DNA of 64,000 bases from Vicinamibacterales bacterium (GTDB taxonomy: Bacteria > Acidobacteriota > Vicinamibacteria > Vicinamibacterales > UBA8438). The position numbers and the translations under genes are program-made. The notes beneath the pieces were generated by a model. The model was not told the origin of the DNA and made no database searches. It worked only from the letters and a program-made list of their open reading frames with translations. Location of the stretch: NCBI GenBank assembly GCA_965249105.1, contig OZ252219.1, positions 4,823,108 through 4,887,107 on the forward strand, written 5' to 3'. Below are positions 1,196-55,476 of this stretch, in pieces (the first letter of the stretch is position 1; each line of letters opens with the position of its first letter).

Positions 1196-1254
1196 GTGGC
1201 GGAGGGACTGGGATTCGAACCCAGGGAACGCTTTCACGTTCAACGGTTTTCAAG
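1196..1254 (-). repeat. att site: 59-bp exact copy of tRNA-Ser 3' portion (anticodon loop to CCA)
   Basis: Identical to 54037-54095; identity stops at the 5' edge of the anticodon loop. Confidence 0.95.
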
Positions 1255-1333
1255 TGCGCTGCACCTGATCCCCAAGATCGCCGTTTTCATTGGTAATTCT
1301 TCACTGTCAACGGTTTGGCGCTGCCGCGAAAAC

Positions 1334-3501: not shown

Positions 3502-3740
3502 TGGCGGTGGGGGCAGTCTCGAGCGAACCCGTCTCGCACGTCGATAAGCGAATAAAAGACGAATATTGGATGGGTCCCTACTATGTCCCGCTTCAAACTC
3601 CTTGACCGGCTCAGGGGGAGTGTCTTGGCGGGTAGCGTCGGTACCTCCGCATCGGAGGATAAGTTGTTGTCCTCGCGCGAGTCGCATCCCGGGGTCATCC
3701 CGGATTAAAACTTGGGTCATGCCTAGCCGGCCGTCACCGG
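3502..3740. repeat. R-end copy A (core TGGCGG + about 210-bp R arm + 29-bp extension), no L arm
   Basis: Near-identical to 38716-38964; left flank differs from all L arms. Confidence 0.95.
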
Positions 3741-3752
3741 CGAGCAACCGGA

Positions 3753-38243: not shown

Positions 38244-38378
38244 CGGGCACTTCATCCGGCCCGTCGTCGGCTCCGTAACGCGGCCCAGGCAAGGCTTCCA
38301 AGGAACACAACCTTCACAACGGCGCCTTCCTGTATCGGTGAGGAACAAGGTTTGTTACTCGTGTGCATCGTCACAAAA

Positions 38379-38964
38379 GTTTTAATCCGGGATAATCCGG
38401 GATAACCCGGGATGACCCCGGGATGCGACTCGCGCGGGCGCAACGACTGACGGGGAGGGCGACAGAATTGGGCCGTGCCGAGGCCCGATCCGCCGTCCGT
38501 GGGAGGGGTGTCCCGGGAGGCTCTCACGTGCGCCCCACCCGGACCACGGAAACCGGCTCGCGAGACGATCGCCCGCATACCGGCGCCACCTCGCTCCAGA
38601 CGTGTCTCGTCTTCTCGGCGCCGCGCCCGCGACCGTCGAAATCGCCCGGCATCCACAGAAAAAACTTGGGGCCGCCCCCGAGCGATCCCGGAGTGCGAGC
38701 ATCAGCGGGACTGGGTGGCGGTGGGGGCAGTCTCGAGCGAACCCGTCTCGCACGTCGATAAGCGAATAAAAGACGAATATTGGATGGGTCCCTACTATGT
38801 CCCGCTTCAAACTCCTTGACCGGCTCAGGGGGAGTGTCTTGGCGGGCAGCGTCGGTACCTCCGCATCGGAGGATAAGTTGTTGTCCTCGCGCGAGTCGCA
38901 TCCCGGGGTCATCCCGAATTATCCCGGATTAAAACTTGGGTCATGCCTAGCCGGCCGTCACCGG
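38379..38964. repeat. complete L-core-R unit B (core 38716) bounded by inverted repeats
   Basis: GTTTTAATCCGGGAT...CCGGATTAAAAC ends; 29-bp inner IR 38408-38436/38888-38916. Confidence 0.95.
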
Positions 38965-39934: not shown

Positions 39935-40757
39935 GTCGGGTAGACCAGGGTCGTTGCTGACCCTGGCCCCCCACAGATCCGGACGTGCGGGTTCTGCCGC
40001 ATCCGGCTCCTCGACAGATGGCTTCGCTACGCGCCGTCGCGTACCCGTTGGTCCAGGAAGCCAGGCGATGGCCACCGCCATCCCCAAGGCTTGTCTGGCC
40101 AGTTCGGCTATCCGTTGTCGTGACGTGGAGACGGGACCCAACCTCGGTGTGTTGGCCGTCTTTCCCTCCACCGGTGCCACCTGCCGGTGCCCCCTTCCCT
40201 CCACGGGGTCTCGTGGGCTCAATTCCCCCGTTTCGGCGGTACTATGAGACACTCCGACTCCTCGCCGTCCATCCCCCCGCGCTTCGTTGCCTTCGCCCGG
40301 CGGTACCATCCGAGCACCTGCGGCTTCGCTCCGTCGGACGCCAGGTGCTGCGTCCACGGCCTCGGGCTTGGTGAGCCGGTGCCCGCCCCCCGGCGGTCTT
40401 TAAGATGGAGACGACGAGGCCTCCCGGGTTCCCGGGAAACCCACCCGCACGCATGCCACGCGCTCCGACCCCGGCGAGGTCGCCGCCTCCACGGCCTCTG
40501 AGATGCGGCGAGATAGCCTTCCGTCCAACGCACGACGTCGGCCCTCACAAACAATGCATTTCGGGGCTCAATCACGCGGCCTACGGGCTCCCTGTGAACG
40601 CTTCGCGCCCTGGGTCACCCCAGGCCCACGCATCACTCGGTTCCGGCTGGCGGCCGACCTTGGCCGGATGGGATTGGATACCCACAGGGTTTCGAACAAG
40701 GTTTCAAAGATCACATCACGGCATCTTGTCCCCCTTGACCGGGCTTTCCCGGCACAC
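39935..40757 (-). mobile_element. group II intron with internally deleted IEP (823 nt)
   Basis: 5' GTGTGCCGGG; domain V GAGCCGGATGCGG...CGCACGTCCGGATCTGTGGGG; domain VI ending CTACCCGAC; only IEP N- and C-terminal stubs remain. Confidence 0.9.
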
Positions 40758-40987
40758 GCGTTGGTGCACGGTTTCCTTCGCTCCCGGCGAGAACCGTCGA
40801 TGCCCTGGCCATCGTGACGCCAAGAGGGCAGGATCTCGACAGGAAGTCGAGAATGCATCCGCAGGACAGGACGACATACCGCGTCGGAAACTGGCCAGCG
40901 TACGACCGAGCGCTTGTCGAACGCGGTGACGTTACGATGGGGTTGGCACCTGCCGTGACCGCCACGTGGGAGGTCACGGGGCACTGA
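40758..40987 (+). pseudogene. IS5-family (IS903-group) left end and transposase N-terminal stub (40853-40987)
   Basis: G|GCGTTGGTGCACGG terminal repeat-like sequence; YRVGNWPAYDRALVERGDVT. Confidence 0.7.
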
Positions 40988-41012
40988 CGCCCCTATATGT
41001 CAAGACAGTCGT

Positions 41013-42098
41013 TCAGGCAGCCAAGTCTGCGGCTTGGCGCGCTCGGTGGTCTGCCATCACGCGTTGAAAGATCTCGCGGGCGAGAAAGCGTTTGAGACAG
41101 CGGATGATCTCCCGTTTGGGCCGCCCTTCAACGGTGCGTCGTTCGACGTAGTTGAGGGTTGGTGAGTGGTACCGCATCCGCACGATGACGGCCCGGTGGA
41201 GCGCGGCGTTGGCCTGTCGATGACCGCCGCGGTAGAGGCGGTGGCGGCCCGTCGTCATCCCGGACGAAGCCGGGATGGGGCAGGCCCCGCAGAGCTTGGC
41301 GAAGGCGGCTTCAGAATGAATCCGATCGGGGTTGTCGCCAAAGATGATCAGCATCTCGGCGGCGGTGTCGGCACCGATGCCAAAGCCCTCACGCAGCGTC
41401 GGCGAGGTCTGGGTGGTGAGTCGACCCAGGTGACGGTCGTGGTCCACGATCTCGACGGAGAGAGCGAACCAGCGCCGGGCGAGCGCCCGGAGGGTATGTT
41501 TCGCCGAGGCAGTCGGCGTATCGATCGTGCCGCATCGCCATCCGCGGCAGCGTTTGAGGAGCGCCTGGTCGGCGAGCGGGTGGAGGGTCTCTCGCAGCTC
41601 CGGCGGGGCGTTGACGACGATCTGCTTCAGCGTGATCATCGCCGAGGTGCGGGCTTTGACCGCCGTCCGCCGCGCGACCTTGAGGTGGCGCATCATCTCG
41701 ACCGCCCCGTCCGCGGTCTTCGGGATGGCGGTCGATTGGCCAGCCAGGACCGACCGCGCCGCGGTCTCGGCATCCACGGGGTCGGACTTCCCGGCGATTC
41801 GACGTGTGCGCCGGTCGCCCCGGTTCACTTCGAGCACCTGGTGCCCGGCTCGCCGGACCGCGCGCGCGAGTCCCGCCCCGTAGCTGCCGGTGCCCTCGAT
41901 GCCGAACGCGGCGATGCGTCCGTGACGCTCGGCCCAGGTGATCAGCTGTTGGTAGCCGTCTGAGTCGGCGGCACACGATCGATCGTCGAGGCGGATCCCC
42001 CACGTGTCGATCGCCACGGCCACGTGGACGTGCTTGTGGGTGTCCACGCCGACGATCACCTTCCGCGCGTCGGGTTGAATAGTCCTGTGGTTCGTCAC
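41013..42098 (-). CDS. IS110-family DEDD recombinase/transposase
   Basis: VGVDTHK, GIEGTG, KSDPVDA, GIGxxTAA, PIPASSG, GGHRQAN. Confidence 0.95.
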   Translation of the reverse strand: MTNHRTIQPDARKVIVGVDTHKHVHVAVAIDTWGIRLDDRSCAADSDGYQQLITWAERHGRIAAFGIEGTGSYGAGLARAVRRAGHQVLEVNRGDRRTRRIAGKSDPVDAETAARSVLAGQSTAIPKTADGAVEMMRHLKVARRTAVKARTSAMITLKQIVVNAPPELRETLHPLADQALLKRCRGWRCGTIDTPTASAKHTLRALARRWFALSVEIVDHDRHLGRLTTQTSPTLREGFGIGADTAAEMLIIFGDNPDRIHSEAAFAKLCGACPIPASSGMTTGRHRLYRGGHRQANAALHRAVIVRMRYHSPTLNYVERRTVEGRPKREIIRCLKRFLAREIFQRVMADHRARQAADLAA

Positions 42099-42345
42099 CG
42101 GGTGGCCTCCTCGGGTGCTGGTGCGTCGGCCGGATGGGCGGACAGGACTGTGATGGGTCGACGTTGCAGCAGGCCCCTATTGGGTCACTGCCCATCCGGT
42201 CAGACGGGTTGCCGTGTCCATCGCCGACGGACGATGACCGACAGATCAGTAGCGAGGACCGTAGGTCAGTCAAGTTGCGGGTCAGGCCACCACCCGCCGG
42301 CACCCACCAGTGTCACCGAGCGACCTCGGCAGGCAGCGGAATGAT
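42099..42345 (-). ncRNA. putative IS110 bridge RNA region
   Basis: Left-end non-coding region with nested stems 42130-42139/42190-42199 and 42124-42130/42223-42229. Confidence 0.55.
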
Positions 42346-42519
42346 GCTCACAGTCAAGTTGACGAGCGGAGCGCATGATTGTGGCTGGATGGCGGACTCC
42401 CGTCATCCTTAGTAGTAGGCACACGTCACCTCATCCCACACGCGGAACGAACGCGTTCTCAGCGAACGGTGGTGAACCGCTCGGAGCAGGTGGCGCCCAA
42501 CCCGAAAGAGGTTCTGAAC

Positions 42520-43106: not shown

Positions 43107-43510
43107 CTACGCGGCGATCGACTCGTCCCTCCACACGTGGTCAGCATCGAACGCCGTGCGGTTCTTGACGACGGCGAACGCGTAGTGCAGCAGTTTGGTC
43201 ATGCAGGCCCCGATCGCCTGCATCGGAGGCAAGGGACGCGTGACTCGCTGCGTGAGGCGCTCGTAGTGGGCTTTGAGGCGCGGGTTATGGCGGAGGGACG
43301 ACAGCGTGGCCATGTAGACCACGGCGCGCAGCTGGGCCCGCCCGCGCTTGGTGATCGGCGTCCGTCCAGCGTGCTGGCCGCTTTCCCGTCTCGAGGGCTG
43401 CAGGCCGGCCAGCTTCACCAACTGCCGGCCATGCTGGTATCTGTCGAACGGGCCAATCTCAGCGATCAGCCCGGCGATGGTGATCCACCCGATCCCCGGC
43501 AGCGTGGCGA
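43107..43510 (-). pseudogene. IS110-family transposase C-terminal fragment
   Basis: LPGIGWITIAGLIAEIG, AGLxPSRRESG, ITKRGR; 5' part cut off at the L-end repeat. Confidence 0.9.
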
Positions 43511-43617
43511 CTGGAGCGCGCACAGTGAGGTCGATCAAAAGTTTTAATCCGGGAGGCACTTGCAAAACCCTGCGCGTAGAGAAGTTTTTTGGCGGCTTGC
43601 GCACGGTGCGGGCCACA

Positions 43618-43965
43618 TCACACAGGCGTGAGCTGACGAAGCAGGCGCTCAGTCATCCGCAGCGACAACGTCTCCATTTCCACAACGATTCGGTCTAGCT
43701 GTCGGCCGTTCTCGATCCAGTCCCGGACACGCTCGGCTTGCTGCTCGGTGAGACGGACGGTGACGGTCTTGCCGCGGACCTTGCGGGTCCACTGATAGTA
43801 CGGCCCGTGTAGCTGCGGGGGCGTCGCTTGGCAGCGGCAGTTCGGCTTGCCGCACGGCATGAAACGTTGCACGAGGCTGCCACGTCGAAGCAATCCCACC
43901 TCAGCGACGGTGCGCTTGAGCGCGTCGTAGCGCTGCGTGTCGGTTGTTGGGTCACGGGTGGGCAT
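43618..43965 (-). CDS. DUF6788-like passenger protein
   Basis: RGSL...CGKPNCRC...HGPYYQWT...GKT. Confidence 0.8.
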   Translation of the reverse strand: MPTRDPTTDTQRYDALKRTVAEVGLLRRGSLVQRFMPCGKPNCRCQATPPQLHGPYYQWTRKVRGKTVTVRLTEQQAERVRDWIENGRQLDRIVVEMETLSLRMTERLLRQLTPV

Positions 43966-44028
43966 GTCGTGCCATTCGGTCTAGCAGTTGTTATACTGCT
44001 AGACCTGGCCCCAGGAGTCAAGAAGAAA

Positions 44029-45168
44029 ATGAGCCGTCTCCGAGAGTGCTTCGCACCACACTGGCTGTCCATTCAGACCGCACTCTTTCCATGGCTGGAG
44101 GAAGAGCTGGGACCACTCACGGAGAAACAGCAGCAGTTCGTGCAGACCTTGGAGGTCATCCGGGTCGAGGACCACATTCCCCGACGCGTCCGCATGCCCG
44201 GCCGACCTCGCAAGGATCGCGCGGCCGTCGCCCGCGCGTTTGTCGCCAAGGCCGTCTACGACCTGCCGACGACACGCAGGCTGCTCGATCGGCTGGCCAC
44301 CGATCGACCCTTGCGCCGGATCTGCGGCTGGGAGACTAGGCGCCAGGTCCCGAGCGAATCCTTGTTCTCACACGCCTTCGACGAGTTTGCGACCACGCAG
44401 TTGCCTCTGCGCGTGCACGAGACGGTCATCCAGAAGACGCATCACGACCGATTGGTCGGTCATCTCTCGCGAGACTCCACCGCGATTGCGGCACGCGAGA
44501 AGCCCGCCACGAAGGACAAGCCGCCCGCGCCCTCGCAGCGGAAGCGGGGACGACCGAAGAAGGGAGAGGAGCGCCCTCACGAGCCCACGCGTCTGCAGCG
44601 GCAGGGCACCATGACCAAGCCGGAGATGCTCGCTGATCTCCCGACGGCCTGCGATGTCGGGACGAAAAAGAACAGCAAGGGCTACAAGGAAACCTGGGTC
44701 GGCTACAAGCTGCATATCGATGTGGCCGATGGCCAGATCCCCATCAGCTGCCTACTGACCACTGCCTCCCTTCATGACAGCCAGGCCGCTATTCCGCTCG
44801 CAACCCTGTCCGCCGAGCGGAGCACCAATCTGTACGACGTGATGGACGCCGCCTACGATGCGCAGGAGATTCGGGCACACAGCCGTTCGCTGAACCACGT
44901 TCCGCTGATCGACATCAACACGCGCCGCAACACGGCGCTGAAGGAAGAACGCCAAGCGGAAGCTCGGCGCCGACAGGTGCTTGGCTTCCAGCTTCCGGAG
45001 GACGTTCGCTACAACGAACGCACGGCCGTTGAGCGGGTCAATGGCCGCCTCAAGGACGAATTCGGCGGTCGCCATGTCCGGGTCCGCGGCCCGGCGAAGG
45101 TGATGTGCCACTGCATGTTCGGCGTGCTCGCACTCACCGCTGACCAACTCATGCGCCTCGTCACGTAG
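44029..45168 (+). CDS. DDE transposase (YREK motif)
   Basis: RDSTAI, GYKLH, DAAYD, YNERTAVERVNGRLK; start refined to MSRLRE. Confidence 0.95.
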   Translation: MSRLRECFAPHWLSIQTALFPWLEEELGPLTEKQQQFVQTLEVIRVEDHIPRRVRMPGRPRKDRAAVARAFVAKAVYDLPTTRRLLDRLATDRPLRRICGWETRRQVPSESLFSHAFDEFATTQLPLRVHETVIQKTHHDRLVGHLSRDSTAIAAREKPATKDKPPAPSQRKRGRPKKGEERPHEPTRLQRQGTMTKPEMLADLPTACDVGTKKNSKGYKETWVGYKLHIDVADGQIPISCLLTTASLHDSQAAIPLATLSAERSTNLYDVMDAAYDAQEIRAHSRSLNHVPLIDINTRRNTALKEERQAEARRRQVLGFQLPEDVRYNERTAVERVNGRLKDEFGGRHVRVRGPAKVMCHCMFGVLALTADQLMRLVT

Positions 45169-45990
45169 CCATCGGTGACGTGATGACCTCGATCCACCCA
45201 GCTGCCTACGCGCAGAAGGCGGCAGCTCTTGCCAGACCCTCGCCCAATGCCCGGGCGGGCCTGCGTCTCCTCATGAATCGGTGCCTCGATCCCGGTGCCC
45301 TGGGCCCGAGTGACCAGTTTGCACCCAAACCCTGACGCTTGTTCCACTGTCGGCCAGGAGTTTTGCAAGTGCCTCCCGGGATAATCCGGGATCATCCGGG
45401 ATGACCCCGGGATGCGACTCGCGCGGGCGCAACGATTGACGGGGAGGGCGACAGAATTGGGCCGTGCCGAGGCCCGATCCGCCGTCCGTGTGAGGGGTGT
45501 CCCGGGAGGCTCTCACGTGCGCCCCACCCGGACCACGGAAACCGGCCCGCGAGACGATCGCCCGCATACCGGCGCCACCTCGCTCCAGACGTGTCTCGTC
45601 TTCTCGGCGCCGCGCCCGCGACCGCTGAAATCGCCTGAATCCAACGAGGAAATCGGGGGCAACCCTCGAGCGATCCCGAAGTGCGAGCATCGGCAGGACT
45701 GGGTGGCGGAGGGGGCAGTCTCGCGCGAACCCGTCTCGCACGTCGCCAAGCGAATAAAAGACGAATATTTGATGGGTCCCTACTATGTCCCGCTTCAAAC
45801 TCCTTGACCGGCTCAGGGGGAGTGTCTTGGCGGGCAGCGTCGGTACCTCCGCATCGGAGGAGAAGTTGTTGTCCTCGCGCGAGTCGCATCCCGGGGTCAT
45901 CCCGGATTATCCCGGCTTATCCCGGGAGGCACTTGCAAAACCCTGCGCGTAGAGAAGTTTTTTGGCGGCTTGCGCACGGTGCGGGCCACA

Positions 45991-46338
45991 TCACACAGGC
46001 GTGAGCTGACGAAGCAGGCGCTCAGTCATCCGCAGCGACAACGTCTCCATTTCCACAACGATTCGGTCTAGCTGTCGGCCGTTCTCGATCCAGTCCCGGA
46101 CACGCTCGGCTTGCTGCTCGGTGAGACGGACGGTGACGGTCTTGCCGCGGACCTTGCGGGTCCACTGATAGTACGGCCCGTGTAGCTGCGGGGGCGTCGC
46201 TTGGCAGCGGCAGTTCGGCTTGCCGCACGGCATGAAACGTTGCACGAGGCTGCCACGTCGAAGCAATCCCACCTCAGCGACGGTGCGCTTGAGCGCGTCG
46301 TAGCGCTGCGTGTCGGTTGTTGGGTCACGGGTGGGCAT
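45991..46338 (-). CDS. DUF6788-like passenger protein
   Basis: Identical to 43618-43965. Confidence 0.8.
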   Translation of the reverse strand: MPTRDPTTDTQRYDALKRTVAEVGLLRRGSLVQRFMPCGKPNCRCQATPPQLHGPYYQWTRKVRGKTVTVRLTEQQAERVRDWIENGRQLDRIVVEMETLSLRMTERLLRQLTPV

Positions 46339-46401
46339 GTCGTGCCATTCGGTCTAGCAGTTGTTATACTGCTAGACCTGGCCCCAGGAGTCAAGAAGAA
46401 A

Positions 46402-47541
46402 ATGAGCCGTCTCCGAGAGTGCTTCGCACCACACTGGCTGTCCATTCAGACCGCACTCTTTCCATGGCTGGAGGAAGAGCTGGGACCACTCACGGAGAAA
46501 CAGCAGCAGTTCGTGCAGACCTTGGAGGTCATCCGGGTCGAGGACCACATTCCCCGACGCGTCCGCATGCCCGGCCGACCTCGCAAGGATCGCGCGGCCG
46601 TCGCCCGCGCGTTTGTCGCCAAGGCCGTCTACGACCTGCCGACGACACGCAGGCTGCTCGATCGGCTGGCCACCGATCGACCCTTGCGCCGGATCTGCGG
46701 CTGGGAGACTAGGCGCCAGGTCCCGAGCGAATCCTTGTTCTCACACGCCTTCGACGAGTTTGCGACCACGCAGTTGCCTCTGCGCGTGCACGAGACGGTC
46801 ATCCAGAAGACGCATCACGACCGATTGGTCGGTCATCTCTCGCGAGACTCCACCGCGATTGCGGCACGCGAGAAGCCCGCCACGAAGGACAAGCCGCCCG
46901 CGCCCTCGCAGCGGAAGCGGGGACGACCGAAGAAGGGAGAGGAGCGCCCTCACGAGCCCACGCGTCTGCAGCGGCAGGGCACCATGACCAAGCCGGAGAT
47001 GCTCGCTGATCTCCCGACGGCCTGCGATGTCGGGACGAAAAAGAACAGCAAGGGCTACAAGGAAACCTGGGTCGGCTACAAGCTGCATATCGATGTGGCC
47101 GATGGCCAGATCCCCATCAGCTGCCTACTGACCGCTGCCTCCCTTCATGACAGCCAGGCCGCTATTCCGCTCGCAACCCTGTCCGCCGAGCGGAGCACCA
47201 ATCTGTACGACGTGATGGACGCCGCCTACGATGCGCAGGAGATTCGGGCACACAGCCGTTCGCTGAACCACGTTCCGCTGATCGACATCAACACGCGCCG
47301 CAACACGGCGCTGAAGGAAGAACGCCAAGCGGAAGCTCGGCGCCGACAGGTGCTTGGCTTCCAGCTTCCGGAGGACGTTCGCTACAACGAACGCACGGCC
47401 GTTGAGCGGGTCAATGGCCGCCTCAAGGACGAATTCGGCGGTCGCCATGTCCGGGTCCGCGGCCCGGCGAAGGTGATGTGCCACTGCATGTTCGGCGTGC
47501 TCGCACTCACCGCTGACCAACTCATGCGCCTCGTCACGTAG
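46402..47541 (+). CDS. DDE transposase
   Basis: Differs from copy 1 by one residue (LLTAAS vs LLTTAS). Confidence 0.95.
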   Translation: MSRLRECFAPHWLSIQTALFPWLEEELGPLTEKQQQFVQTLEVIRVEDHIPRRVRMPGRPRKDRAAVARAFVAKAVYDLPTTRRLLDRLATDRPLRRICGWETRRQVPSESLFSHAFDEFATTQLPLRVHETVIQKTHHDRLVGHLSRDSTAIAAREKPATKDKPPAPSQRKRGRPKKGEERPHEPTRLQRQGTMTKPEMLADLPTACDVGTKKNSKGYKETWVGYKLHIDVADGQIPISCLLTAASLHDSQAAIPLATLSAERSTNLYDVMDAAYDAQEIRAHSRSLNHVPLIDINTRRNTALKEERQAEARRRQVLGFQLPEDVRYNERTAVERVNGRLKDEFGGRHVRVRGPAKVMCHCMFGVLALTADQLMRLVT

Positions 47542-47791
47542 CCATCGGTGACGTGATGACCTCGATCCACCCAGCTGCCTACGCGCAGAAGGCGGCAGCT
47601 CTTGCCAGACCCTCGCCCAATGCCCGGGCGGGCCTGCGTCTCCTCATGAATCGGTGCCTCGATCCCGGTGCCCTGGGCCCGAGTGACCAGTTTGCACCCA
47701 AACCCTGACGCTTGTTCCACTGTCGGCCAGGAGTTTTGCAAGTGCCTCCCGGATTAAAACTTTTGATCGAGCTCAGCGGATTATGTTCCGC

Positions 47792-47851
47792 GAGCAAGGC
47801 ATCGAAAAATATCTTGGCTCCGGCATGATCCGGGGCATCGGCCCGGTCTAC
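47792..47851 (+). pseudogene. RecD2-like helicase internal fragment
   Basis: My translation: EQGIEKYLGSGMIRGIGPVY. Confidence 0.7.
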
Positions 47852-48064: not shown

Positions 48065-48841
48065 TCAGAAGTCGACGGTGATGCCGATCTGCACCCCGAA
48101 CAACGTGGCCAGTGACCGCGTCGGCTCGAACGTTACCCCGGTCTCATCGCGCTGGAGCTCTCCCCGCGTCAAATAGTCGACCTCGCCGCCGGTGAGATAC
48201 CGGAGCCCGATGTCGAGACCCAGGCGAGCCTCGCTCCCCGACACGAGCCCGATCGTGACGCCGCCTCCCGCACCGAAGCTCGGCGCGAAGTCGCCCAGAT
48301 GCGTGGTCGCCGCACCGCCACCTTCATTGCCCAGGTCGACAGACGTTCGCGTATACACGTGACTGAACCCGAGGAGCCCCTCGGCGTACGGCCGTACCCG
48401 GCCGGCGGGAGGCTGGACCCGCACGAGCGCATGGGTCCGAATGAAGTTGTTGGTGGTCCCGACGTCGCTAAACACCTCGGGGACGGCCGGAAACAGCGCG
48501 ATGCGGCGGGTCTCCGTGCCGTAGCGCAGGTAGTCGATGGTCGCTCCCACGGAGACGGGGGTCTGGCCTACGCGGGCCGTGAAGTCGACGGCCGCCCCCG
48601 GGGTCGCGCCGACCTTCTTCCCGAACGGCCCGATCGGGACCCCGACCAGGAACTTTGGGCTGAACTGGAAGCGCAGCAGTTCCGGGACCTCGACCACGGA
48701 TGATTCCGGCCGAGGAAGCTGCCCGGGCGGCGGTGCCGGTGGGCTGGCGGACGCCGTCTGCGCAGCGGCAGTTGATGTGCCTGCGAGCCACAATCCACAC
48801 GCGACGGCGATGGCTCCGCGACTGACAGCTCGTCTCTGCAT
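48065..48841 (-). CDS. outer-membrane beta-barrel protein
   Basis: Signal peptide, amphipathic strands, VRPYAEG, terminal Phe (GITVDF); start refined to MQRRA. Confidence 0.75.
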   Translation of the reverse strand: MQRRAVSRGAIAVACGLWLAGTSTAAAQTASASPPAPPPGQLPRPESSVVEVPELLRFQFSPKFLVGVPIGPFGKKVGATPGAAVDFTARVGQTPVSVGATIDYLRYGTETRRIALFPAVPEVFSDVGTTNNFIRTHALVRVQPPAGRVRPYAEGLLGFSHVYTRTSVDLGNEGGGAATTHLGDFAPSFGAGGGVTIGLVSGSEARLGLDIGLRYLTGGEVDYLTRGELQRDETGVTFEPTRSLATLFGVQIGITVDF

Positions 48842-49091
48842 CGTTGCCTGCCTCCGTAGTTCGAATGGACGCATTATCTGATCATGAGAAGCGGCAGTCT
48901 CCCACGATATAGAGGAGCAAACCTCGTGCCGGTCTCGTGAGAGCATCCAAGTCGTTTGTGGAGAGTGGGTTGCGCTCCGGAGGCACGCATTGACGGCACC
49001 GTGGCGTCGACCTGATCCGTGGACAATCCACCACAGCTAGTGAACTTTTTTGGAGACGCGCTACCCATGCTGCCGGGCGTTTCCGTAGCAC

Positions 49092-49270: not shown

Positions 49271-49539
49271 CACGGCTCCGGACCCTGGCCAAGGCCGTCG
49301 CCGAGACCGGCCGCGTCGCCCCCGAGAATCGACTCGGCCAGCGCATCAATCAGTTGGGTGGTTGCGCGTGTGGCCAGGAGCCGTTGCGGTACAGCGTGAT
49401 GGCGACGTCGACGTTTCGGCGTAGCGCGGCCTGAACCGCAGGCCAGTTCTTCTCGGAGCGAACCAGTGTCTTCCACGAGTACAAGTGCTTCCGCTTGTGA
49501 AAGTCGGAGTGGGTGCTCGGAACCACTGGTCGATCAAGA

Positions 49540-50144
49540 GTTTGATCCGAGATATTCCGGAACTATCCGAAACACGTGAGACGTGCGATGCTCGTGGGCA
49601 CAACACCTGACGGGGAGGGCGACAGGATTGGGCCGCGCCGATCCCGATCCGACGTCCGCCTTCTGCGGGAGGGGTGTCCGAGAAAGCTCTCACGCAGCGC
49701 CCAACCCGGACCACGGAACCCGGCTCGCGAGACGATCACGCGGACACCAGCCGCCACCTCGCCCCAGGCGCGACTCACCTCCCCGGCGCCGTGCCCGTGC
49801 CCGCTGAAATCGCCTGAATCCAACGAGGAAATCGAGGGCAACCCTCGAGCGATCCCGAAGTGCGAGCATCGGCAGGACTGGGTGGCGGAGGGGGCAGTCT
49901 CGCGCGAACCCGTCTCGCACGTCGCCAAGCGAATAAAAGACGAATATTTGATGGGTCCCTACTATGTCCCGCTTCACACTCCTTGACCGGCTCAGGGGGA
50001 GTGTCTTGGCGGGCAGCGTCGGTACCTCCGCATCGGAGGATAAGTTGTTGTCCTCGCGCGAGTCGCATCCCGGGGTCATCCCGGATGATCCCGGCTTATC
50101 CCGGATTAAAACTTTTGATCGAGCTCAGCGGATTATGTTCCGCG
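49540..50144. repeat. L-core-R unit D (core 49883), left terminal repeat degenerate
   Basis: R arm near-identical to unit C including the 32-bp extension; L arm similar to 53858-54037. Confidence 0.9.
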
Positions 50145-50618
50145 CTTTGATGACATCGAGAAAGTGATCCGATCATGAATGCGGATTGGCCGACTGCCAG
50201 ATGCATACTCTGTGGCTCCGGAGAAGACATCACAACGGAACATATAATTCCCGACTGCCTCGCCGGAAAACTCGTAGCGAATTTCCTGTGCAAAGACTGC
50301 AATTCAAGGCTTGGCCATGGTGCCGAAAGCGCTGTCAGGAACGACCCAAAGGTTCGGCTATTAATTGAACGCCTAGTCGGTGAACAACCTCACCTCGCCA
50401 ATAAATTACAGAAGCGGCTACCGTACATAGGCCGCAGTGAGCAAGGCGAAATCCCTGGATACATGCGAGACGGAAGGTTCGTTCCGAAGGAACAACCGCT
50501 GGACGATGGATCGTTTATCTTTCCGGAGGACCTATCTCTATATCATTCATCATGAGGCACTTGCAAAACCCTGCGCGTAGAGAAGTTTTTTGGCGGCTTG
50601 CGCACGGTGCGGGCCACA

Positions 50619-50966
50619 TCACACAGGCGTGAGCTGACGAAGCAGGCGCTCAGTCATCCGCAGCGACAACGTCTCCATTTCCACAACGATTCGGTCTAGC
50701 TGTCGGCCGTTCTCGATCCAGTCCCGGACACGCTCGGCTTGCTGCTCGGTGAGACGGACGGTGACGGTCTTGCCGCGGACCTTGCGGGTCCACTGATAGT
50801 ACGGCCCGTGTAGCTGCGGGGGCGTCGCTTGGCAGCGGCAGTTCGGCTTGCCGCACGGCATGAAACGTTGCACGAGGCTGCCACGTCGAAGCAATCCCAC
50901 CTCAGCGACGGTGCGCTTGAGCGCGTCGTAGCGCTGCGTGTCGGTTGTTGGGTCACGGGTGGGCAT
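50619..50966 (-). CDS. DUF6788-like passenger protein
   Basis: Identical to the other copies. Confidence 0.8.
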   Translation of the reverse strand: MPTRDPTTDTQRYDALKRTVAEVGLLRRGSLVQRFMPCGKPNCRCQATPPQLHGPYYQWTRKVRGKTVTVRLTEQQAERVRDWIENGRQLDRIVVEMETLSLRMTERLLRQLTPV

Positions 50967-51029
50967 GTCGTGCCATTCGGTCTAGCAGTTGTTATACTGC
51001 TAGACCTGGCCCCAGGAGTCAAGAAGAAA

Positions 51030-52169
51030 ATGAGCCGTCTCCGAGAGTGCTTCGCACCACACTGGCTGTCCATTCAGACCGCACTCTTTCCATGGCTGGA
51101 GGAAGAGCTGGGACCACTCACGGAGAAACAGCAGCAGTTCGTGCAGACCTTGGAGGTCATCCGGGTCGAGGACCACATTCCCCGACGCGTCCGCATGCCC
51201 GGCCGACCTCGCAAGGATCGCGCGGCCGTCGCCCGCGCGTTTGTCGCCAAGGCCGTCTACGACCTGCCGACGACACGCAGGCTGCTCGATCGGCTGGCCA
51301 CCGATCGACCCTTGCGCCGGATCTGCGGCTGGGAGACTAGGCGCCAGGTCCCGAGCGAATCCTTGTTCTCACACGCCTTCGACGAGTTTGCGACCACGCA
51401 GTTGCCTCTGCGCGTGCACGAGACGGTCATCCAGAAGACGCATCACGACCGATTGGTCGGTCATCTCTCGCGAGACTCCACCGCGATTGCGGCACGCGAG
51501 AAGCCCGCCACGAAGGACAAGCCGCCCGCGCCCTCGCAGCGGAAGCGGGGACGACCGAAGAAGGGAGAGGAGCGCCCTCACGAGCCCACGCGTCTGCAGC
51601 GGCAGGGCACCATGACCAAGCCGGAGATGCTCGCTGATCTCCCGACGGCCTGCGATGTCGGGACGAAAAAGAACAGCAAGGGCTACAAGGAAACCTGGGT
51701 CGGCTACAAGCTGCATATCGATGTGGCCGATGGCCAGATCCCCATCAGCTGCCTACTGACCGCTGCCTCCCTTCATGACAGCCAGGCCGCTATTCCGCTC
51801 GCAACCCTGTCCGCCGAGCGGAGCACCAATCTGTACGACGTGATGGACGCCGCCTACGATGCGCAGGAGATTCGGGCACACAGCCGTTCGCTGAACCACG
51901 TTCCGCTGATCGACATCAACACGCGCCGCAACACGGCGCTGAAGGAAGAACGCCAAGCGGAAGCTCGGCGCCGACAGGTGCTTGGCTTCCAGCTTCCGGA
52001 GGACGTTCGCTACAACGAACGCACGGCCGTTGAGCGGGTCAATGGCCGCCTCAAGGACGAATTCGGCGGTCGCCATGTCCGGGTCCGCGGCCCGGCGAAG
52101 GTGATGTGCCACTGCATGTTCGGCGTGCTCGCACTCACCGCTGACCAACTCATGCGCCTCGTCACGTAG
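51030..52169 (+). CDS. DDE transposase
   Basis: Same protein as copy 2. Confidence 0.95.
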   Translation: MSRLRECFAPHWLSIQTALFPWLEEELGPLTEKQQQFVQTLEVIRVEDHIPRRVRMPGRPRKDRAAVARAFVAKAVYDLPTTRRLLDRLATDRPLRRICGWETRRQVPSESLFSHAFDEFATTQLPLRVHETVIQKTHHDRLVGHLSRDSTAIAAREKPATKDKPPAPSQRKRGRPKKGEERPHEPTRLQRQGTMTKPEMLADLPTACDVGTKKNSKGYKETWVGYKLHIDVADGQIPISCLLTAASLHDSQAAIPLATLSAERSTNLYDVMDAAYDAQEIRAHSRSLNHVPLIDINTRRNTALKEERQAEARRRQVLGFQLPEDVRYNERTAVERVNGRLKDEFGGRHVRVRGPAKVMCHCMFGVLALTADQLMRLVT

Positions 52170-52991
52170 CCATCGGTGACGTGATGACCTCGATCCACCC
52201 AGCTGCCTACGCGCAGAAGGCGGCAGCTCTTGCCAGACCCTCGCCCAATGCCCGGGCGGGCCTGCGTCTCCTCATGAATCGGTGCCTCGATCCCGGTGCC
52301 CTGGGCCCGAGTGACCAGTTTGCACCCAAACCCTGACGCTTGTTCCACTGTCGGCCAGGAGTTTTGCAAGTGCCTCTCATGTTAAAAAAATGTCCAAGCG
52401 GGCGGGCAGAGAACTCTTCGGGGTTACGCCTGATCAACTCAGATGCCTACCTTCCGGCGGCTCAGTTGAAGCGGCATCCGGGCTTTTTATTACAAACTGG
52501 ACTCTAGATTCAATTGAACCTGACCTCAGCGGACCAGAGATTGACCCGATAGTTCCGGCGACAATTGCGTTCGAGTTTCTCGCATTGCATTGCGGTATTA
52601 AAATCTATGAAAACCCGCCGCAGTTTGCGCTAATTCGGCGTCAGCTCATTGATGGCAAGTTGTCTGGAGATGAGATTCGTGTGCAGCGCCTGGAGGCGCA
52701 GAATAGGCAGCTCTTCCACGGACTCGTATTTGAAGGCAACAGCCCAGGAGCGCGAGTCCAGATACGGCTTTTTGGCTCTCTGGCTTTTCGCGTGGAATTT
52801 AACCGTTGGTCCATCAGCGGCACTCGTTGTGGTTACACTCACGACTTAGTGTCTGAAGATGACGGCTTTTGGGTCGATGCATAGATTGGTGGTCGAGGAG
52901 GAGGCGATAATTTCGTTCCATTACCGTGACACTCAACACGCTAGATGTTAAAAACACCTAGATTTATTATATGTTTTTAGATCAACGGTCT

Positions 52992-53105
52992 CTCCTCAAG
53001 GGGGACGTGTTCACGCCTGACGTGATCGAGAACTGGCTCGCCTACAAACGGGAGAACGAAGTCGACGCCATTCGCCTGCGGCCGCATCCGTGGGAATTCG
53101 CGCTG
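52992..53105 (+). pseudogene. glnA: glutamine synthetase type I 3'-terminal fragment
   Basis: My translation: [38 protein letters not shown]. Confidence 0.85.
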
Positions 53106-53359
53106 GGATGACCCCGGGATGCGACTCGCGCGGGCGCAACGACTGACGGGGAGGGCGACAGAATTGGGCCGTGCCGAGGCCCGATCCGCCGTCCGTGGGA
53201 GGGGTGTCCCGGGAGGCTCTCACGTGCGCCCCACCCGGACCACGGAACCCGGCTCGCGAGACGATCGCCCGCATACCGGCGCCACCTCGCTCCAGACGTG
53301 TCTCGTCTTCTCGGCGCCGCGCCCGCGACCGTCGAAATCGCCCGGCATCCACAGAAAAA
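53105..53359. repeat. partial L arm E (no outer iterons, no core)
   Basis: Near-identical to the L arm of unit B. Confidence 0.9.
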
Positions 53360-53395
53360 CGCCAGCTCGCCCACAGATTTTTCTGACGAACCAAA

Positions 53396-54043
53396 GTTTT
53401 AATCCGGGATCAGCCGGGATCAGCCGGGATGACCCCGGGATGCGACTCTCGCGGTCGCAACGACGTACGGGGACGCGGCGGATCCAGCGTGGCGCGTTGC
53501 GCTCGACGACGAGGCGTTCGTCGTCGATGCCCGGGTCGGTGTACGGTCGGTCGTGCAGCCCGGCGTGGATCACGCGCACCAGCTTGTGGGCGGTGGCCAG
53601 GATCCATCCCGGTAGCCGACGCTCTGTGGGCGCAACGACTGACGCCGAGTCCAGCGCCGGGACGCCACGTTGCACCGGCCGGTGCAGGTCCAGCGCGCCG
53701 CGCGTCATGGTCAGTTTCTGTGACGTGGGCTCGGCCGCCGCGCCGCGAGAAGTTCTTGCAGCGGCATATTCCGGGACTTGCCGGGCTCCATCCCGGAATC
53801 CGACGCTCCGCGGACCCGACGACTGACAGGGGTCAGTCGTACATGGCTCTCTCAAAACCCCGGACCACCGAACCTGGCTCGCGAGACGATCACGCGGACA
53901 CCGGCCGCCACCTCGCCCCCGGCGCGACTCACCTCCCCGGCGCCGCGCCCGTGACCGCTGAAATCGCCTGAATCCAACGAGGAAATCGGGGGGCACCCCT
54001 CGAGCGATCCCGAAGTGCGAGCATCGGCAGGACTGGGTGGCGG
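53396..54043. repeat. L arm F: terminal repeat 53396-53470, unrelated insert, L body 53858-54037 abutting the tRNA CCA end
   Basis: GTTTTAATCCGGGAT(CAGCCGGGAT)2GACCCCGGG; ...GCATCGGCAGGACTGGG|TGGCGG. Confidence 0.9.
53474..53610 (-). pseudogene. IS110-family transposase extreme C-terminal fragment
   Basis: ATAHKLVRVIHAGLHDRPYTDPGIDDERLVVERNAPRWIRR. Confidence 0.6.
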
Positions 54044-54127
54044 AGGGACTGGGATTCGAACCCAGGGAACGCTTTCACGTTCAACGGTTTTCAAGACCGC
54101 CGCCTTCAACCGCTCGGCCATCCCTCC
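54038..54127 (-). tRNA. tRNA-Ser(UGA)
   Basis: GGAGGGA/TCCCTCC acceptor, CTTGAAA loop, long variable arm, GGTTCGAATCC, discriminator G, encoded CCA. Confidence 0.98.
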
Positions 54128-54186: not shown

Positions 54187-55476
54187 CTATGCTGGCGGCT
54201 CGATGACCTCCTGGCCGTGCATATAGGGGCGGAGCACCTCGGGGATCACCACCGACCCGTCGAGCTGCTGGTAGTTCTCCAGGATCGCGATCATCGCGCG
54301 ACCGACCGCCACGCCAGAGCCGTTGAGTGTATGCACGTGTTCGGGCTTCCCCTTTCCGTTCGGCCGGAACTTGATATTGGCCCGGCGCGCCTGGAAACCC
54401 TCGGTGTTGCTGCACGACGAGATTTCCCGATAGGCGTTCTGACCAGGCAACCACACCTCGAGGTCATAGGTCTTGGCGGCGGCGAAACCCATGTCACCCG
54501 TACACAGCGTCACCGTGCGATACGCGAGGCCGAGCCGCTTGAGCACCTCCTCGGCGTGACCGGTGAGCTGCTCGTGGATCTCGTACGACTGGTCTGGCGT
54601 CGCGTAGGTGACGAGCTCGACCTTGTCGAACTGATGCTGGCGGAACAACCCTCGCACATCCTTGCCGTATGAGCCGGCTTCACTCCGAAAACACGGTGTA
54701 TACGCCACGTAACGGATCGGGAGCGTGCTGCCGTCCAGAATCTCGTCGCGGTGCAGGTTGCACAGCGGGACTTCGGCTGTCGGTATCAAGTAGAGGTCCC
54801 AGTCGCCCCCAACCTTGAAGAGGTCCTGCGCGAACTTGGGAAGATTCCCAGTCCCGACCAGCGACTTCGAGTTGGCCAAGAACGGCGGCTCTACCTCGGT
54901 GTAGCCATGTTCTCCGCCGTGGAGGTCGAGCATGAAGTTGATGAGCGCCCGTCCCAGCCTGGCACCGGCCCCCATCAGCACCGAGAATCGTGCACCGGCG
55001 ATCCGGGTGGACCGCTCGAAGTCCAGAATCCCGAGGTCGGGTCCCAGGTCCCAATGCGCCTTGACCTCGAAGTCGAACGTCGGGGGATCACCGACGCGTC
55101 GCACCTCCTGGTTGTCGGCGTCACTCTTGCCGACCGGCACACTCTCGTGGGCTAGGTTGGGCAACGTCAAGGCCAACGCGTCGCGCTCGGTCTCAACCTT
55201 GTCTAGCTGCTCCTCCTGCTCCTTGATGCGTTCGCCGTATCGCTGACCCGCCGCGAGGAGCTCCTCCGCGGGGAGACCGTCCCTCTTGGCCTGGGCAATC
55301 TGACCGCCGAGCTCCTTACGCTGGCGTCGGGCGTCTTCGAGAACGGGCAGAATCTCCCGGCGCGAGGCGTCCAGCCTAACGAGTGCGTCCAACAGCTCTC
55401 CAAGGTCAACACCGCGATGCAGGAGACCTGCCCGGACGTCCTCTGGTCGCTCCCTCAACAGGATGGGGTCAAGCAT
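54187..55476 (-). CDS. serS: seryl-tRNA synthetase
   Basis: LIPTAEVP, FRSEAGSYG, RQHQFDKVE, EISSCSN, TLNGSG. Confidence 0.98.
   Translation of the reverse strand: MLDPILLRERPEDVRAGLLHRGVDLGELLDALVRLDASRREILPVLEDARRQRKELGGQIAQAKRDGLPAEELLAAGQRYGERIKEQEEQLDKVETERDALALTLPNLAHESVPVGKSDADNQEVRRVGDPPTFDFEVKAHWDLGPDLGILDFERSTRIAGARFSVLMGAGARLGRALINFMLDLHGGEHGYTEVEPPFLANSKSLVGTGNLPKFAQDLFKVGGDWDLYLIPTAEVPLCNLHRDEILDGSTLPIRYVAYTPCFRSEAGSYGKDVRGLFRQHQFDKVELVTYATPDQSYEIHEQLTGHAEEVLKRLGLAYRTVTLCTGDMGFAAAKTYDLEVWLPGQNAYREISSCSNTEGFQARRANIKFRPNGKGKPEHVHTLNGSGVAVGRAMIAILENYQQLDGSVVIPEVLRPYMHGQEVIEPPA

What the first reader, a model, noticed from the sequence alone, without database searches (positions are those of the whole stretch)
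38379..38964. The 557-bp junction unit is both an att site and an inverted-repeat-bounded element with 10-bp iterons
Seen: the outer ends are inverted. GTTTTAATCCGGGAT-(10-bp units)-GACCCCGGGATGCGACTCGCGCG pairs with CGCGCGAGTCGCATCCCGGGGTC-(ATCCCGGNNN)n-ATTAAAAC, with a 29-bp perfect inner IR. In unit C the IR extends to CGATCAAAA/TTTTGATCG. The number of 10-bp units (about one helical turn) varies between copies. These ends face the cargo, not the crossover core. R also has a CCTCCG-cat-CGGAGG hairpin. Inference: a second protein (transposase- or relaxase-like) may act at the outer ends to load cargo, while the core handles tRNA integration.
Basis: partly seen in the sequence, partly recalled or inferred. 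Interest (0 to 1): 0.8.

Follow-up and report, generated by a model that had tools for sequence, protein, structure and literature searches.

The report
Inverted iteron arms of stacked att sites
The inverted, 10-bp-repeat ends of this 560-bp unit are real. They are most simply the protein-binding arms of an integration site that recurs between integrase-less DNA islands stacked at a serine tRNA gene of a soil acidobacterium; a separate enzyme working on those ends is possible but not shown.

Summary
The unit 38374-38964 has a 56-nt inverted repeat (89% complementary, 29 nt perfect). Each arm carries 2-4 CCGGGAT heptamers phased at 10-11 bp. The unit is an attP-like junction, P arm-core-P' arm, whose core TGGCGG(A/T)GGG is the 3' end of tRNA-Ser(UGA). 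Full copies lie at 38.4, 45.4 and 49.5 kb, with half copies at 3.5 kb and at the tRNA (54.0 kb). Together they bound four cargo segments that contain no recombinase. I found 27 such arms in the window and in related Vicinamibacterales contigs; the heptamer is invariant and the spacers vary. A P4-type integrase with an arm-binding domain uses the same core in a related MAG, but its own arm lacks these iterons. Best reading (about 0.5): the arms are accessory binding arrays for an integrase N-domain or an excisionase-like factor, in integrase-less elements accreted in tandem. However, the arms also occur without cores, and they end at fixed nucleotides next to truncated genes, so that idea stays open (about 0.2). 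This is a variant of a known kind and of moderate interest.

The parts
38374..38456 (+). P arm of junction unit U1: terminus CAAAAGTTTTAAT, four CCGGGAT heptamers (38387, 38397, 38407, 38418) and the box GACCCCGGGATGCGACTCGCGCGGGCGCAACGACTGACGGGGA
   Evidence: (I7, D6)
38457..38715 (-). P-arm interior. On the tRNA (-) strand it carries a terminator-like hairpin plus T-run (about 38665-38690), roughly 40 nt after the core position
   Evidence: Alignment. The homologous hairpins scored as terminator-like in L005 5052-5071 and L003 2662-2681; U1 has one stem mismatch and was not scored. Little covariation otherwise; no Rfam hit
38716..38725 (.). Core or crossover segment TGGCGGTGGG; TGGCGGAGGG in the other copies, which is the 3' end of tRNA-Ser
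38726..38875 (+). P'-arm interior, 96-99% conserved between copies and between MAGs, including the hairpin CCTCCGCATCGGAGG at 38858-38872
38876..38964 (+). P' arm of U1: mirror image of the box, heptamers on the - strand (38900, variant 38911, 38921), terminus ATTAAAAC, and the class-a1 extension CTTGGGTCATGCCTAGCCGGCCGTCACCGG that ends at 38964
   Evidence: (I7, D13)
3502..3742 (+). U0, the distal half site: core TGGCGGTGGG, P' interior and a P' arm with only two heptamers; class-a1 terminus. It marks the far end of the array
   Evidence: (D1, D13)
43511..43552 (+). True outer end of the P arm of U2 (class b' terminus GGAGCGCGCACAGTGAGGTCGATCAAAAGTTTTAATCCGG), cut off from the rest of the arm by IS copy A. 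It abuts a 5'-truncated IS110-family gene (43107-43553, - strand)
   Evidence: (I10)
45376..45925 (+). U2, a full junction unit (P arm, core 45704-45713, P' arm), flanked on both sides by IS copies inserted at CCGG of the outermost iteron
   Evidence: (I2, D5, D8)
47749..47792 (+). True outer end of the P' arm of U2 (CCGGATTAAAACTTTTGATCGAGCTCAGCGGATTATGTTCCGCG, class b terminus)
   Evidence: (D12)
49533..50144 (+). U3, a full junction unit. Its P arm is diverged (iterons CCGAGAT / CCGGAAC / CCGAAAC), the core is at 49883-49892, and the P' arm is standard with four heptamers and a class b terminus
   Evidence: (D1, D6, D12)
53105..53359 (+). U4, a P-arm fragment (box plus interior, no core) lying directly in front of U5
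   Evidence: (D5)
53390..54047 (+). U5, the proximal half site. The P arm has four heptamers, then about 330 bp holding the C-terminal tail of an IS110-family transposase gene (- strand, about 53473-53800), then the P interior and the core 54038-54047, which runs into the tRNA
54038..54127 (-). tRNA-Ser(UGA), the attB gene; the seryl-tRNA synthetase gene follows at 54187-55476 (-)

Best explanation
The 560-bp unit is a complete attP-type site, P arm-core-P' arm. It is regenerated at each boundary when elements that integrate into the 3' end of tRNA-Ser(UGA) pile up in tandem.

The inverted ends are the two arms of that site. Each arm is an array of 2-5 CCGGGAT sites phased one helical turn apart, plus a 30-nt box. 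Reading away from the core, the motif is the same on both sides.

The arrays most likely load several copies of a small DNA-binding module, so that the arms fold back on the core during integration or excision. That module would be the N-terminal arm-binding domain of a P4/lambda-type tyrosine integrase, or a winged-helix excisionase (AlpA/Xis-like).

The four cargo segments in this window carry no recombinase, so they would depend on an integrase supplied in trans.

Shown: the anatomy, the crossover position, strain-to-strain turnover, the lack of a recombinase, and use of the same core by an arm-domain integrase in a related MAG.
Inferred: which protein binds the iterons, and that binding matters for recombination.
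For: 1. Crossover at the core. U5 is P arm-core-tRNA and U0 is flank-core-P' arm. U1-U3 are P-core-P', all broken at the same 10 nt.
2. In related MAGs the sequence to the right of the core follows the local tRNA (GGAGAGAGTG in L005, L006 and L009), as expected for recombinant att sites.
3. Turnover. L001 is 99.86% identical over the flanking 10 kb. It has a different P arm and different cargo at the same tRNA.
4. Motif behaviour. Across 40 ten-bp units from 27 arms the heptamer is invariant at six positions (38 of 40 at the first), while positions 8 and 10 vary. Spacing is 11, 10, 10 bp in 18 arms.
5. An integrase with Arm-DNA-bind_3, Phage_int_M and Phage_integrase domains sits about 180 bp from the same core in L005. 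There it is joined to a unit-type P arm. In L009 the arrangement is B-core-P'-int-primase-AlpA.
6. Other elements at this core carry analogous phased repeats. TTCC occurs three times at 10-bp spacing in the int-proximal arm of L005/L009. TTATCCCAC occurs twice, plus an inverted copy, right after the tRNA in L017/L018.
7. The arms are confined to att arrays. There are one or two exact hits per representative genome and none in JGI metagenomes, viral contigs, plasmids or phages.
8. The P arm carries a terminator-like hairpin just after the core on the tRNA strand, as expected for an element that replaces the tRNA's downstream region.
9. Precedent. The ICEMlSymR7A attP holds five 10-bp arm-type motifs, and RdfS/BldC-type winged-helix proteins bind with one DNA turn between protomers (PMC11963761). 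Tandem accretion of att-flanked, integrase-less elements is described (PMC5704250).
Against: - No integrase lies next to a unit-type P' arm in the window or in any related locus.
- The only integrase seen at this core (L005/L009) has an AT-rich P' arm without CCGGGAT, so the cognate binder is not identified.
- The inverted repeat is much longer than arm sites need: 56-75 nt at about 90%, with 29 nt perfect.
- The arm-to-core distance is not fixed: about 270 bp in U1 against about 600 bp in U5-type arms.
- Arms occur without a core (L002, L004) and as two or three tandem copies (L003, L006, U4-U5).
- Their outer termini are fixed to the nucleotide in 3-6 contexts each, some next to truncated genes.
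- The P arm of U3 has diverged iterons while its P' arm has not.
Confidence: 0.5

Rival explanations
1. A second enzyme (a transposase or another recombinase) recognises the outer termini. Either the arm or the whole unit would then be a mobile module of its own that can be placed next to new DNA, creating cargo that the core system then moves.
For: Outer termini are discrete and recur in different contexts:
- class b', (C)T|GGAGCGCGCACAGTGAGGTCGATCAAAAG, in 6 contexts
- class a1, |CCGGTGACGGCCGGCTAGGCATGACCCAAG, in 4 contexts
- class b, |CGCGGAACATAATCCGCTGAGCTCGATCAAAAG, in 3 contexts

The neighbours include truncated genes:
- an IS110-family Transposase_20 fragment at window 43107-43553
- an IS200 tnpA cut after residue 58 in L006
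- a CueR-like MerR gene cut in L004

Other points:
- Arms occur without cores. L002 holds a 480-bp IR-bounded element with no core.
- All four cargo segments, including a 34.6-kb block of ordinary metabolic genes, lack any mobility gene.
Against: - No transposase, relaxase or other recombinase is consistently adjacent to the arms.
- No unit has a target-site duplication.
- Copies are not dispersed in genomes.
- The arms that flank a cargo are inverted. A simple site-specific recombinase would therefore invert the cargo, not excise it.
- Fixed termini may reflect rearrangements in an IS-rich array.
Confidence: 0.2
2. The arms are tied to an IS110/IS1111-family element. Either they form its right end, or they are its preferred target; members of this family are known to target terminal repeats, attC sites and REPs.
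For: - In U5-type arms the box is followed on the inner side by about 150 nt and then the C-terminal tail of an IS110-family transposase. This is seen in the window and in L001, L002, L005, L006, L014, L022 and L023. Homologues of the tail carry PF02371.
- Class b' termini are preceded by CT in 5 of 6 contexts.
- IS110-family fragments abut arms in the window and in L014.
Against: - All U5-type junctions are identical (ACGGGGA|CGCGGCGG), so they trace to a single ancestral event.
- Only fragments of this transposase exist in the protein database.
- The arms of U1-U3 lack it.
- The demonstrable crossover is a 10-14-nt identity block in the tRNA acceptor end. That is typical of tyrosine integrases, not of the 2-nt cores of IS110 elements (established knowledge of the family).
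Confidence: 0.1
3. The mirror symmetry has no present function. The P' arm arose by inverted duplication of the P-arm module, gene conversion between copies keeps the two alike, and the array is a graveyard of decayed elements.
For: - The P arm of U3 is diverged.
- Iteron number varies from 1 to 5.
- There are many chimeric or truncated arms, IS insertions and inversions in L014, L022 and L023.
- No recombinase is present.
Against: - The heptamer is invariant while the spacers vary across 27 arms from several MAGs.
- The phasing is kept at exact 10-11-bp steps.
- The array differs between near-identical strains, which indicates recent activity.
Confidence: 0.12
4. The inverted arms are sites of a DNA invertase, so the 430-bp interior or the cargo between units flips as a switch.
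For: - The same outer-flank class is found joined to P-type and to P'-type arms. Class a1 is joined to P' arms in U0, U1 and L014 but to a P-type arm in L001; class b is joined to P' arms in U3 and L023 but to a P-type arm in L003.
- L014 holds an inverted P arm.
Against: - There is no invertase gene.
- The inversions can be explained by homologous recombination between 75-nt repeats.
- The interior carries a tRNA-derived crossover core, not an obvious promoter.
Confidence: 0.05

Closest known systems
Arm-type (P/P') integrase sites and Xis/RDF arrays in attP of heterobivalent tyrosine integrases (lambda, P4 family, ICEMlSymR7A IntS/RdfS)
   Same: - A short motif is repeated in tandem at about one helical turn, on both sides of a core that overlaps the 3' end of a tRNA gene.
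- The site is several hundred bp long.
- ICEMlSymR7A attP has five 10-bp arm-type motifs, and winged-helix RDFs bind with one DNA turn per protomer (PMC11963761).
   Different: - Here the two arms are near-perfect mirror images over 56-75 nt, including a 29-nt perfect stretch.
- The integrase gene is absent from every element.
- The arms also occur detached from any core.
CIMEs and tandem accretion of integrative elements (ICESt1 family and others)
   Same: Att-flanked segments without integration or transfer genes are stacked by site-specific integration into the att site at the end of a tRNA gene, with a full att site at each junction (PMC5704250).
   Different: - There are four or more integrase-less elements in a row.
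- One is a 34.6-kb block of ordinary metabolic genes.
- No ICE/IME remnants such as relaxase, T4SS or integrase pseudogenes were found in them.
Tycheposon arrays in Prochlorococcus islands
   Same: Successive integrations at one tRNA push older elements inward. Cargo modules are separated by partial tRNA or att repeats, and tRNA-Ser(UGA) is among the genes labelled in that study (bioRxiv 10.1101/2020.12.28.424599).
   Different: The junctions here are 560-bp two-armed sites with iterons, not short partial tRNAs. The phylum and the recombinase family context also differ.
MITEs and TIR-bounded transposons with multiple subterminal binding sites (Tn7, Mu, IS21, Tn402 ends)
   Same: Terminal inverted repeats with several internal repeats, and discrete termini seen in several contexts.
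   Different: - No target duplication and no partner transposase.
- The repeats are 10 bp rather than about 20 bp.
- Copies are confined to att arrays.
- The unit splits at its middle, at the tRNA.
Integron cassette arrays (attC)
   Same: An array of promoterless or mixed cargo, separated by imperfect inverted-repeat recombination sites next to a fixed chromosomal anchor.
   Different: - There is no IntI.
- The termini do not fit GTTRRRY/RYYYAAC.
- The crossover is in the middle of the unit (the tRNA core), not at the repeat ends.
- The unit is 560 bp and cargo runs up to 34 kb.

Membership tests
attP of a heterobivalent tyrosine integrase (arm-type sites) | A core shared with attB, with recombinant half sites at the element ends | tested here: met
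   The core TGGCGG(A/T)GGG equals the tRNA-Ser 3' end. U5 is P-core-tRNA, U0 is flank-core-P', and U1-U3 are P-core-P'
attP of a heterobivalent tyrosine integrase (arm-type sites) | A repeated short motif on both arms, away from the core | tested here: met
   Two to five CCGGGAT at 10-11-bp phasing on each arm; the heptamer is invariant and the spacers vary
attP of a heterobivalent tyrosine integrase (arm-type sites) | A cognate integrase with an arm-binding domain encoded by the element, usually next to P' | tested here: not met
   No Phage_integrase hit in the window or next to unit-type P' arms. An Arm-DNA-bind_3 integrase uses the same core in L005/L009, but with a different P' arm
attP of a heterobivalent tyrosine integrase (arm-type sites) | The integrase N-domain or the RDF binds the repeats, and the repeats are required for recombination | not testable with these tools
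   Needs EMSA or footprinting and excision/integration assays
CIME / tandem accretion | Segments flanked by att sites in direct orientation, lacking integration and transfer genes | tested here: met
   Four cargo segments between five cores; Pfam finds no integrase, relaxase or T4SS genes in them
CIME / tandem accretion | Derivation from an ICE or IME by decay | tested here: inconclusive
   No integrase or transfer-gene remnants found by Pfam or tblastn. Cargo 1 looks like ordinary chromosomal genes
MITE / TIR transposon | Terminal inverted repeats at the element boundaries | tested here: met
   GTTTTAAT...ATTAAAAC termini, extended to (C)GATCAAAAG in U2 and U3
MITE / TIR transposon | Target-site duplication | tested here: not met
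   No direct repeat flanks U1, U2, U3 or the L002 element. By contrast, the resident 1,823-bp IS shows clear 4-bp duplications
MITE / TIR transposon | Dispersed copies and an autonomous partner with the same ends | tested here: not met
   Six loci in GTDB representative genomes, five of them real, all in Vicinamibacterales MAGs. One chance hit in JGI metagenomes; none in viral contigs, plasmids or phages. No transposase is bounded by the arms
IS110/IS1111 family element | A DEDD transposase between the element ends | tested here: inconclusive
   Only a C-terminal tail lies beside the box in U5-type arms, and only fragments exist in the database. The intact IS110 at 41013-42098 has unrelated ends
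Integron attC | R''/R' core sites RYYYAAC...GTTRRRY, and IntI | tested here: not met
   The termini read AAGTTTTAAT/ATTAAAACTT, which do not fit the consensus (sequence). No integrase of any kind is in the window
Structured RNA gene (bridge/seek RNA, tRNA-like, other Rfam family) | An Rfam match or covariation-supported structure | tested here: not met
   No Rfam hit even at E<=1. The RNAalifold covariation term is only -0.5 and -1.2 kcal/mol on 13 copies, with 2-3 compensatory pairs

The most novel reading that the evidence does not exclude
The arm is a roughly 110-130-bp module: a discrete terminus, then AAAGTTTTAAT, then 3-4 CCGGGAT iterons, then a box ending in ACGGGGA. In this reading it is the substrate of a second, still unidentified recombination system. 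That system attaches arbitrary chromosomal DNA to a portable tRNA-Ser attP scaffold. The result would be a cargo-loading mechanism that turns ordinary genes, here up to 34.6 kb, into integrase-less cassettes that move in trans. It would be a large-scale analogue of integron cassettes, built on a tRNA att site.
Probability: 0.12. Interest if true: 0.75.

Novelty: new variant of a known kind. Interest (0 to 1): 0.4.

Why it matters
If the arms are accessory sites, the locus is a clean natural example of how a tRNA gene collects integrase-less cargo, including a 34.6-kb metabolic block, in Vicinamibacterales. That is an abundant but little-studied soil lineage. The locus also offers a defined 7-bp motif for finding the responsible integrase or excisionase.

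If the fixed outer termini reflect a second activity instead, this would be a new way of packaging chromosomal genes for site-specific transfer.

Either way, the repeat family marks a recombination hot spot that breaks metagenome assemblies: several related contigs end at this tRNA.

Tried and rejected
- **Coding potential of the unit.** The ORFs across it (38382-38912 on the - strand, for example) start in the repeat and are Arg/Pro-rich. They cannot be conserved, because the unit is split at U0 and U5. Rejected.
- **RNA gene.** No Rfam hit at gathering score or at E<=1, and almost no covariation on either strand.
- **Integrase or pseudogene in the window.** Pfam on 45 ORFs and tblastn with the L005 integrase and primase found nothing.
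- **Public DNA scans with the 20-mer ATGACCCCGGGATGCGACTC.**
  - GTDB genomes gave 5 real loci plus 1 probable chance hit (L007).
  - JGI metagenomes gave 1 chance hit inside a coding region (L008).
  - Viral contigs gave none, also none with a P'-interior 20-mer.
  - blastn against plasmids and phages gave none.
- **Contexts of close homologues of the L005 integrase (L009-L013).** L009 shares the AT-rich P' arm but has no unit arm within 11 kb. L012 and L013 are inserted in a VirB4 gene, so they have a different specificity.
- **SerRS-anchored look-ups in relatives (L015-L021).** The same tRNA carries other element families, or the contig ends there. No unit was found.
- **Linking the L009 integrase element to a unit-type P arm through the IS200 fragment in L006.** Rejected: the IS200 is an independent insertion in L009 that is absent from L005.
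- **Looking for an intact copy of the IS110-family gene whose tail sits in U5-type arms.** Only 59-165-aa fragments exist.
- **Exact look-up of cargo protein 48065-48946.** Not on record.
- **The 32-nt similarity between the core-proximal P arm and the integrase codons for FRDWAAE**. Treated as probable chance.

Full report
**What is there**

The window holds one tRNA gene, tRNA-Ser(UGA), at 54038-54127 on the minus strand. The seryl-tRNA synthetase gene follows it.

- Full copies: U1 38374-38964, U2 45376-45925 and U3 49533-50144.
- U0 (3502-3742): a right half only.
- U4 (53105-53359): a left fragment.
- U5 (53390-54047): a left half that runs straight into the tRNA.

[quoted passage not shown] The array therefore reads: flank-core-P' | 34.6-kb cargo | P-core-P' | cargo | P-core-P' | cargo | P-core-P' | cargo | P-core-tRNA. 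This is what repeated site-specific integration into one att site produces. The 560-bp junction unit is a regenerated attP.

**The observation**

The inverted repeat, the 29-nt perfect stretch, the termini GTTTTAAT/ATTAAAAC, the variable number of 10-bp units and the CCTCCG-CAT-CGGAGG hairpin are all present.

CCGGGAT occurs 46 times in the window against 14.5 +/- 3.8 expected. Nearly all of the excess lies in the arms, at 10-11-bp spacing.

In U2 both outermost iterons are interrupted at CCGG by copies of a 1,823-bp IS with 16-bp terminal repeats and 4-bp duplications. A third copy lies in unrelated DNA at TCAT.

**Who could act on it**

Pfam scans of 45 ORFs found no integrase, relaxase or conjugation gene.
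- Cargo 1 (3743-38373) is a block of ordinary-looking genes: DUF1552/DUF1592 pairs, ankyrin proteins, homogentisate-pathway enzymes, an MFS transporter and an outer-membrane barrel.
- The other cargos hold DUF6933, an HNH protein, unknown ORFs, IS copies, an IS110 element and an ORF-less group II intron.
- tblastn with a related integrase found no pseudogene.

**Relatives**

The exact 20-mer of the box occurs in five loci of four Vicinamibacterales MAGs. It is absent from JGI metagenomes apart from one chance hit, and from viral contigs, plasmids and phages.

ENA contigs reached through proteins gave more copies.
- L001 is 99.86% identical over the 10 kb beyond the tRNA. It has a different P arm and different cargo at the tRNA, so the array turns over between strains.
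- L014, L022 and L023 hold further units and arms in both orientations.
- Altogether I found 27 arms. Eighteen have four heptamers spaced 11, 10, 10 bp. In 40 ten-bp units the heptamer is invariant except at its first base (38 of 40), while positions 8 and 10 vary.

**The integrase lead**

In L005 a 411-aa integrase (Arm-DNA-bind_3, Phage_int_M, Phage_integrase) lies about 180 bp from the same core. A unit-type P arm sits on the other side of that core.

Its 97% relative in L009 shows flank-core-P'-int-primase(DUF3631)-AlpA. This is a P4-like integrative element that uses this tRNA end.

That P' arm is AT-rich and has no CCGGGAT. It does have TTCC three times at 10-bp spacing next to the core, and a second cluster of three near the int start codon.

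A third element family at the same tRNA (L017/L018) has TTATCCCAC twice, plus an inverted copy, just after the tRNA.

Phased short repeats with an A-T-pyrimidine-C-C motif, read away from the core, are therefore a shared feature of att arms at this site. Published attP sites have the same design: five 10-bp arm-type motifs in ICEMlSymR7A, and winged-helix RDF/BldC filaments with one DNA turn per protomer (PMC11963761).

**Interior of the unit**

There is no Rfam match and almost no covariation.

On the tRNA strand a hairpin plus T-run lies about 40 nt after the core. It scores as terminator-like in L005 and L003. This fits an element that replaces the DNA downstream of the tRNA.

The P' interior is 96-99% conserved between MAGs.

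**What does not fit the simple arm-site reading**

1. No integrase is next to any unit-type P' arm.
2. The mirror symmetry is far longer than a few arm sites need.
3. Arms occur without cores. L004 has one after a truncated CueR-like gene beside copA/copB. L002 has a 480-bp IR-bounded piece with no core. L003, L006 and U4-U5 show two or three tandem arms.
4. The outer ends are fixed to the nucleotide in several contexts: class b' in six, a1 in four and b in three. Some neighbours are truncated genes: an IS110-family Transposase_20 fragment at 43107-43553 and an IS200 tnpA cut after residue 58 in L006.
5. In U5-type arms the box is followed by the C-terminal tail of an IS110-family transposase. 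All such junctions are identical, so this traces to one ancestral event.

Against an independent transposon:
- There are no target duplications.
- There is no partner enzyme.
- There is no dispersal outside att arrays.
- The arms that flank a cargo are inverted.

**Verdict**

The best-supported mechanism is that the inverted iteron arms are accessory protein-binding arrays of a large attP. That attP is carried by integrase-less elements which accrete in tandem at tRNA-Ser and depend on an integrase in trans. This is the known CIME/accretion pattern (PMC5704250) and resembles tycheposon arrays (bioRxiv 10.1101/2020.12.28.424599).

I put this at about 0.5. A separate activity at the outer termini gets about 0.2, a link to an IS110-family element about 0.1, no present function about 0.12, and an inversion switch about 0.05.

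The case is a variant of a known kind. Its unusual features are the near-perfect mirror arms, the absence of any recombinase across many copies, and the fixed termini.

Noticed in passing
window 39936-40750 (- strand): An ORF-less group II intron of about 815 bp. Rfam matches D1-D4 at 40459-40677 and D5/D6 at 39935-40011. It is an insertion relative to L014, where window 39935 joins 40751 directly. Part of it also occurs in L001 13041-13399.
   Followed up: partly
window 43553-45375, 45926-47748, 50554-52376: Three near-identical copies of a 1,823-bp IS (446-aa DDE_Tnp_1/DUF772 transposase, 16-bp terminal repeats GAGGCACTTGCAAAAC, 4-bp duplications). Two copies sit at mirror-image CCGG positions in the outermost iteron of both arms of U2, in the same orientation, so that IS-U2-IS looks like a composite transposon carrying an attP.
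   Followed up: partly
window 1196-1262: A 67-nt copy (96%) of the 3' part of tRNA-Ser lies 52.8 kb from the gene, outside the unit array. Together with the hybrid histidine kinase/response regulator gene at 1582-3396, it looks like the far end of an older island of a different type with a long tRNA repeat. A 58-nt repeat of the same kind bounds a 6.5-kb island in L016.
   Followed up: partly
window 53473-53800 (- strand); L002, L005, L006, L014, L022, L023: The U5-type P arm contains the C-terminal tail of an IS110-family transposase (...ILATAHKLVRVIHAVLHDRPYTDPGIDDERLVVERNAPRWIR), plus two internal diverged copies of the arm box. Only 59-165-aa fragments of this protein exist in the protein collection.
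   Followed up: partly
window 43107-43553 (- strand): A 5'-truncated IS110-family gene (Transposase_20, E=3e-25) starts exactly at the class b' terminus of the U2 P arm. Class b' termini are preceded by CT in 5 of 6 contexts.
   Followed up: partly
window 41013-42098 (- strand), element about 40984-42362: An intact IS110-family element (361-aa DEDD_Tnp_IS110 plus Transposase_20). It is present in inverted orientation and in a different flank in L014 (97.5% identity).
   Followed up: no
L010 11142-11171; L012/L013 11015-11032; L005 about 5010-5040: The codons for the conserved integrase motif SSFRDWAAE (TTCCGGGACTGGGCGGCGGAG) resemble the core-proximal P-arm sequence GCGGGACTGGG(T/C)GGCGGAG, 87% over 32 nt. 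Probably chance in GC-rich DNA, but unexplained.
   Followed up: no
L012 and L013, 9830-10000: An 86%-identical relative of the L005 integrase is inserted, with an AT-rich arm, inside a VirB4/TrbE gene of a T4SS cluster. Close relatives of this integrase family therefore have different target specificities.
   Followed up: no
L015, L019, L020 (contig ends): Several metagenome contigs of related organisms end within or just after this tRNA-Ser. This suggests the locus is variable or repetitive enough to break assemblies.
   Followed up: no
window 38368-38396 (+ strand); L005 5632-5605: A weak sigma-70-like match (TCGTCA, 16-17 nt spacer, GATAAT; 9 of 12) is formed by the class a' flank and the first iteron. 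It reads inward toward the core and is present in two independent copies.
   Followed up: no
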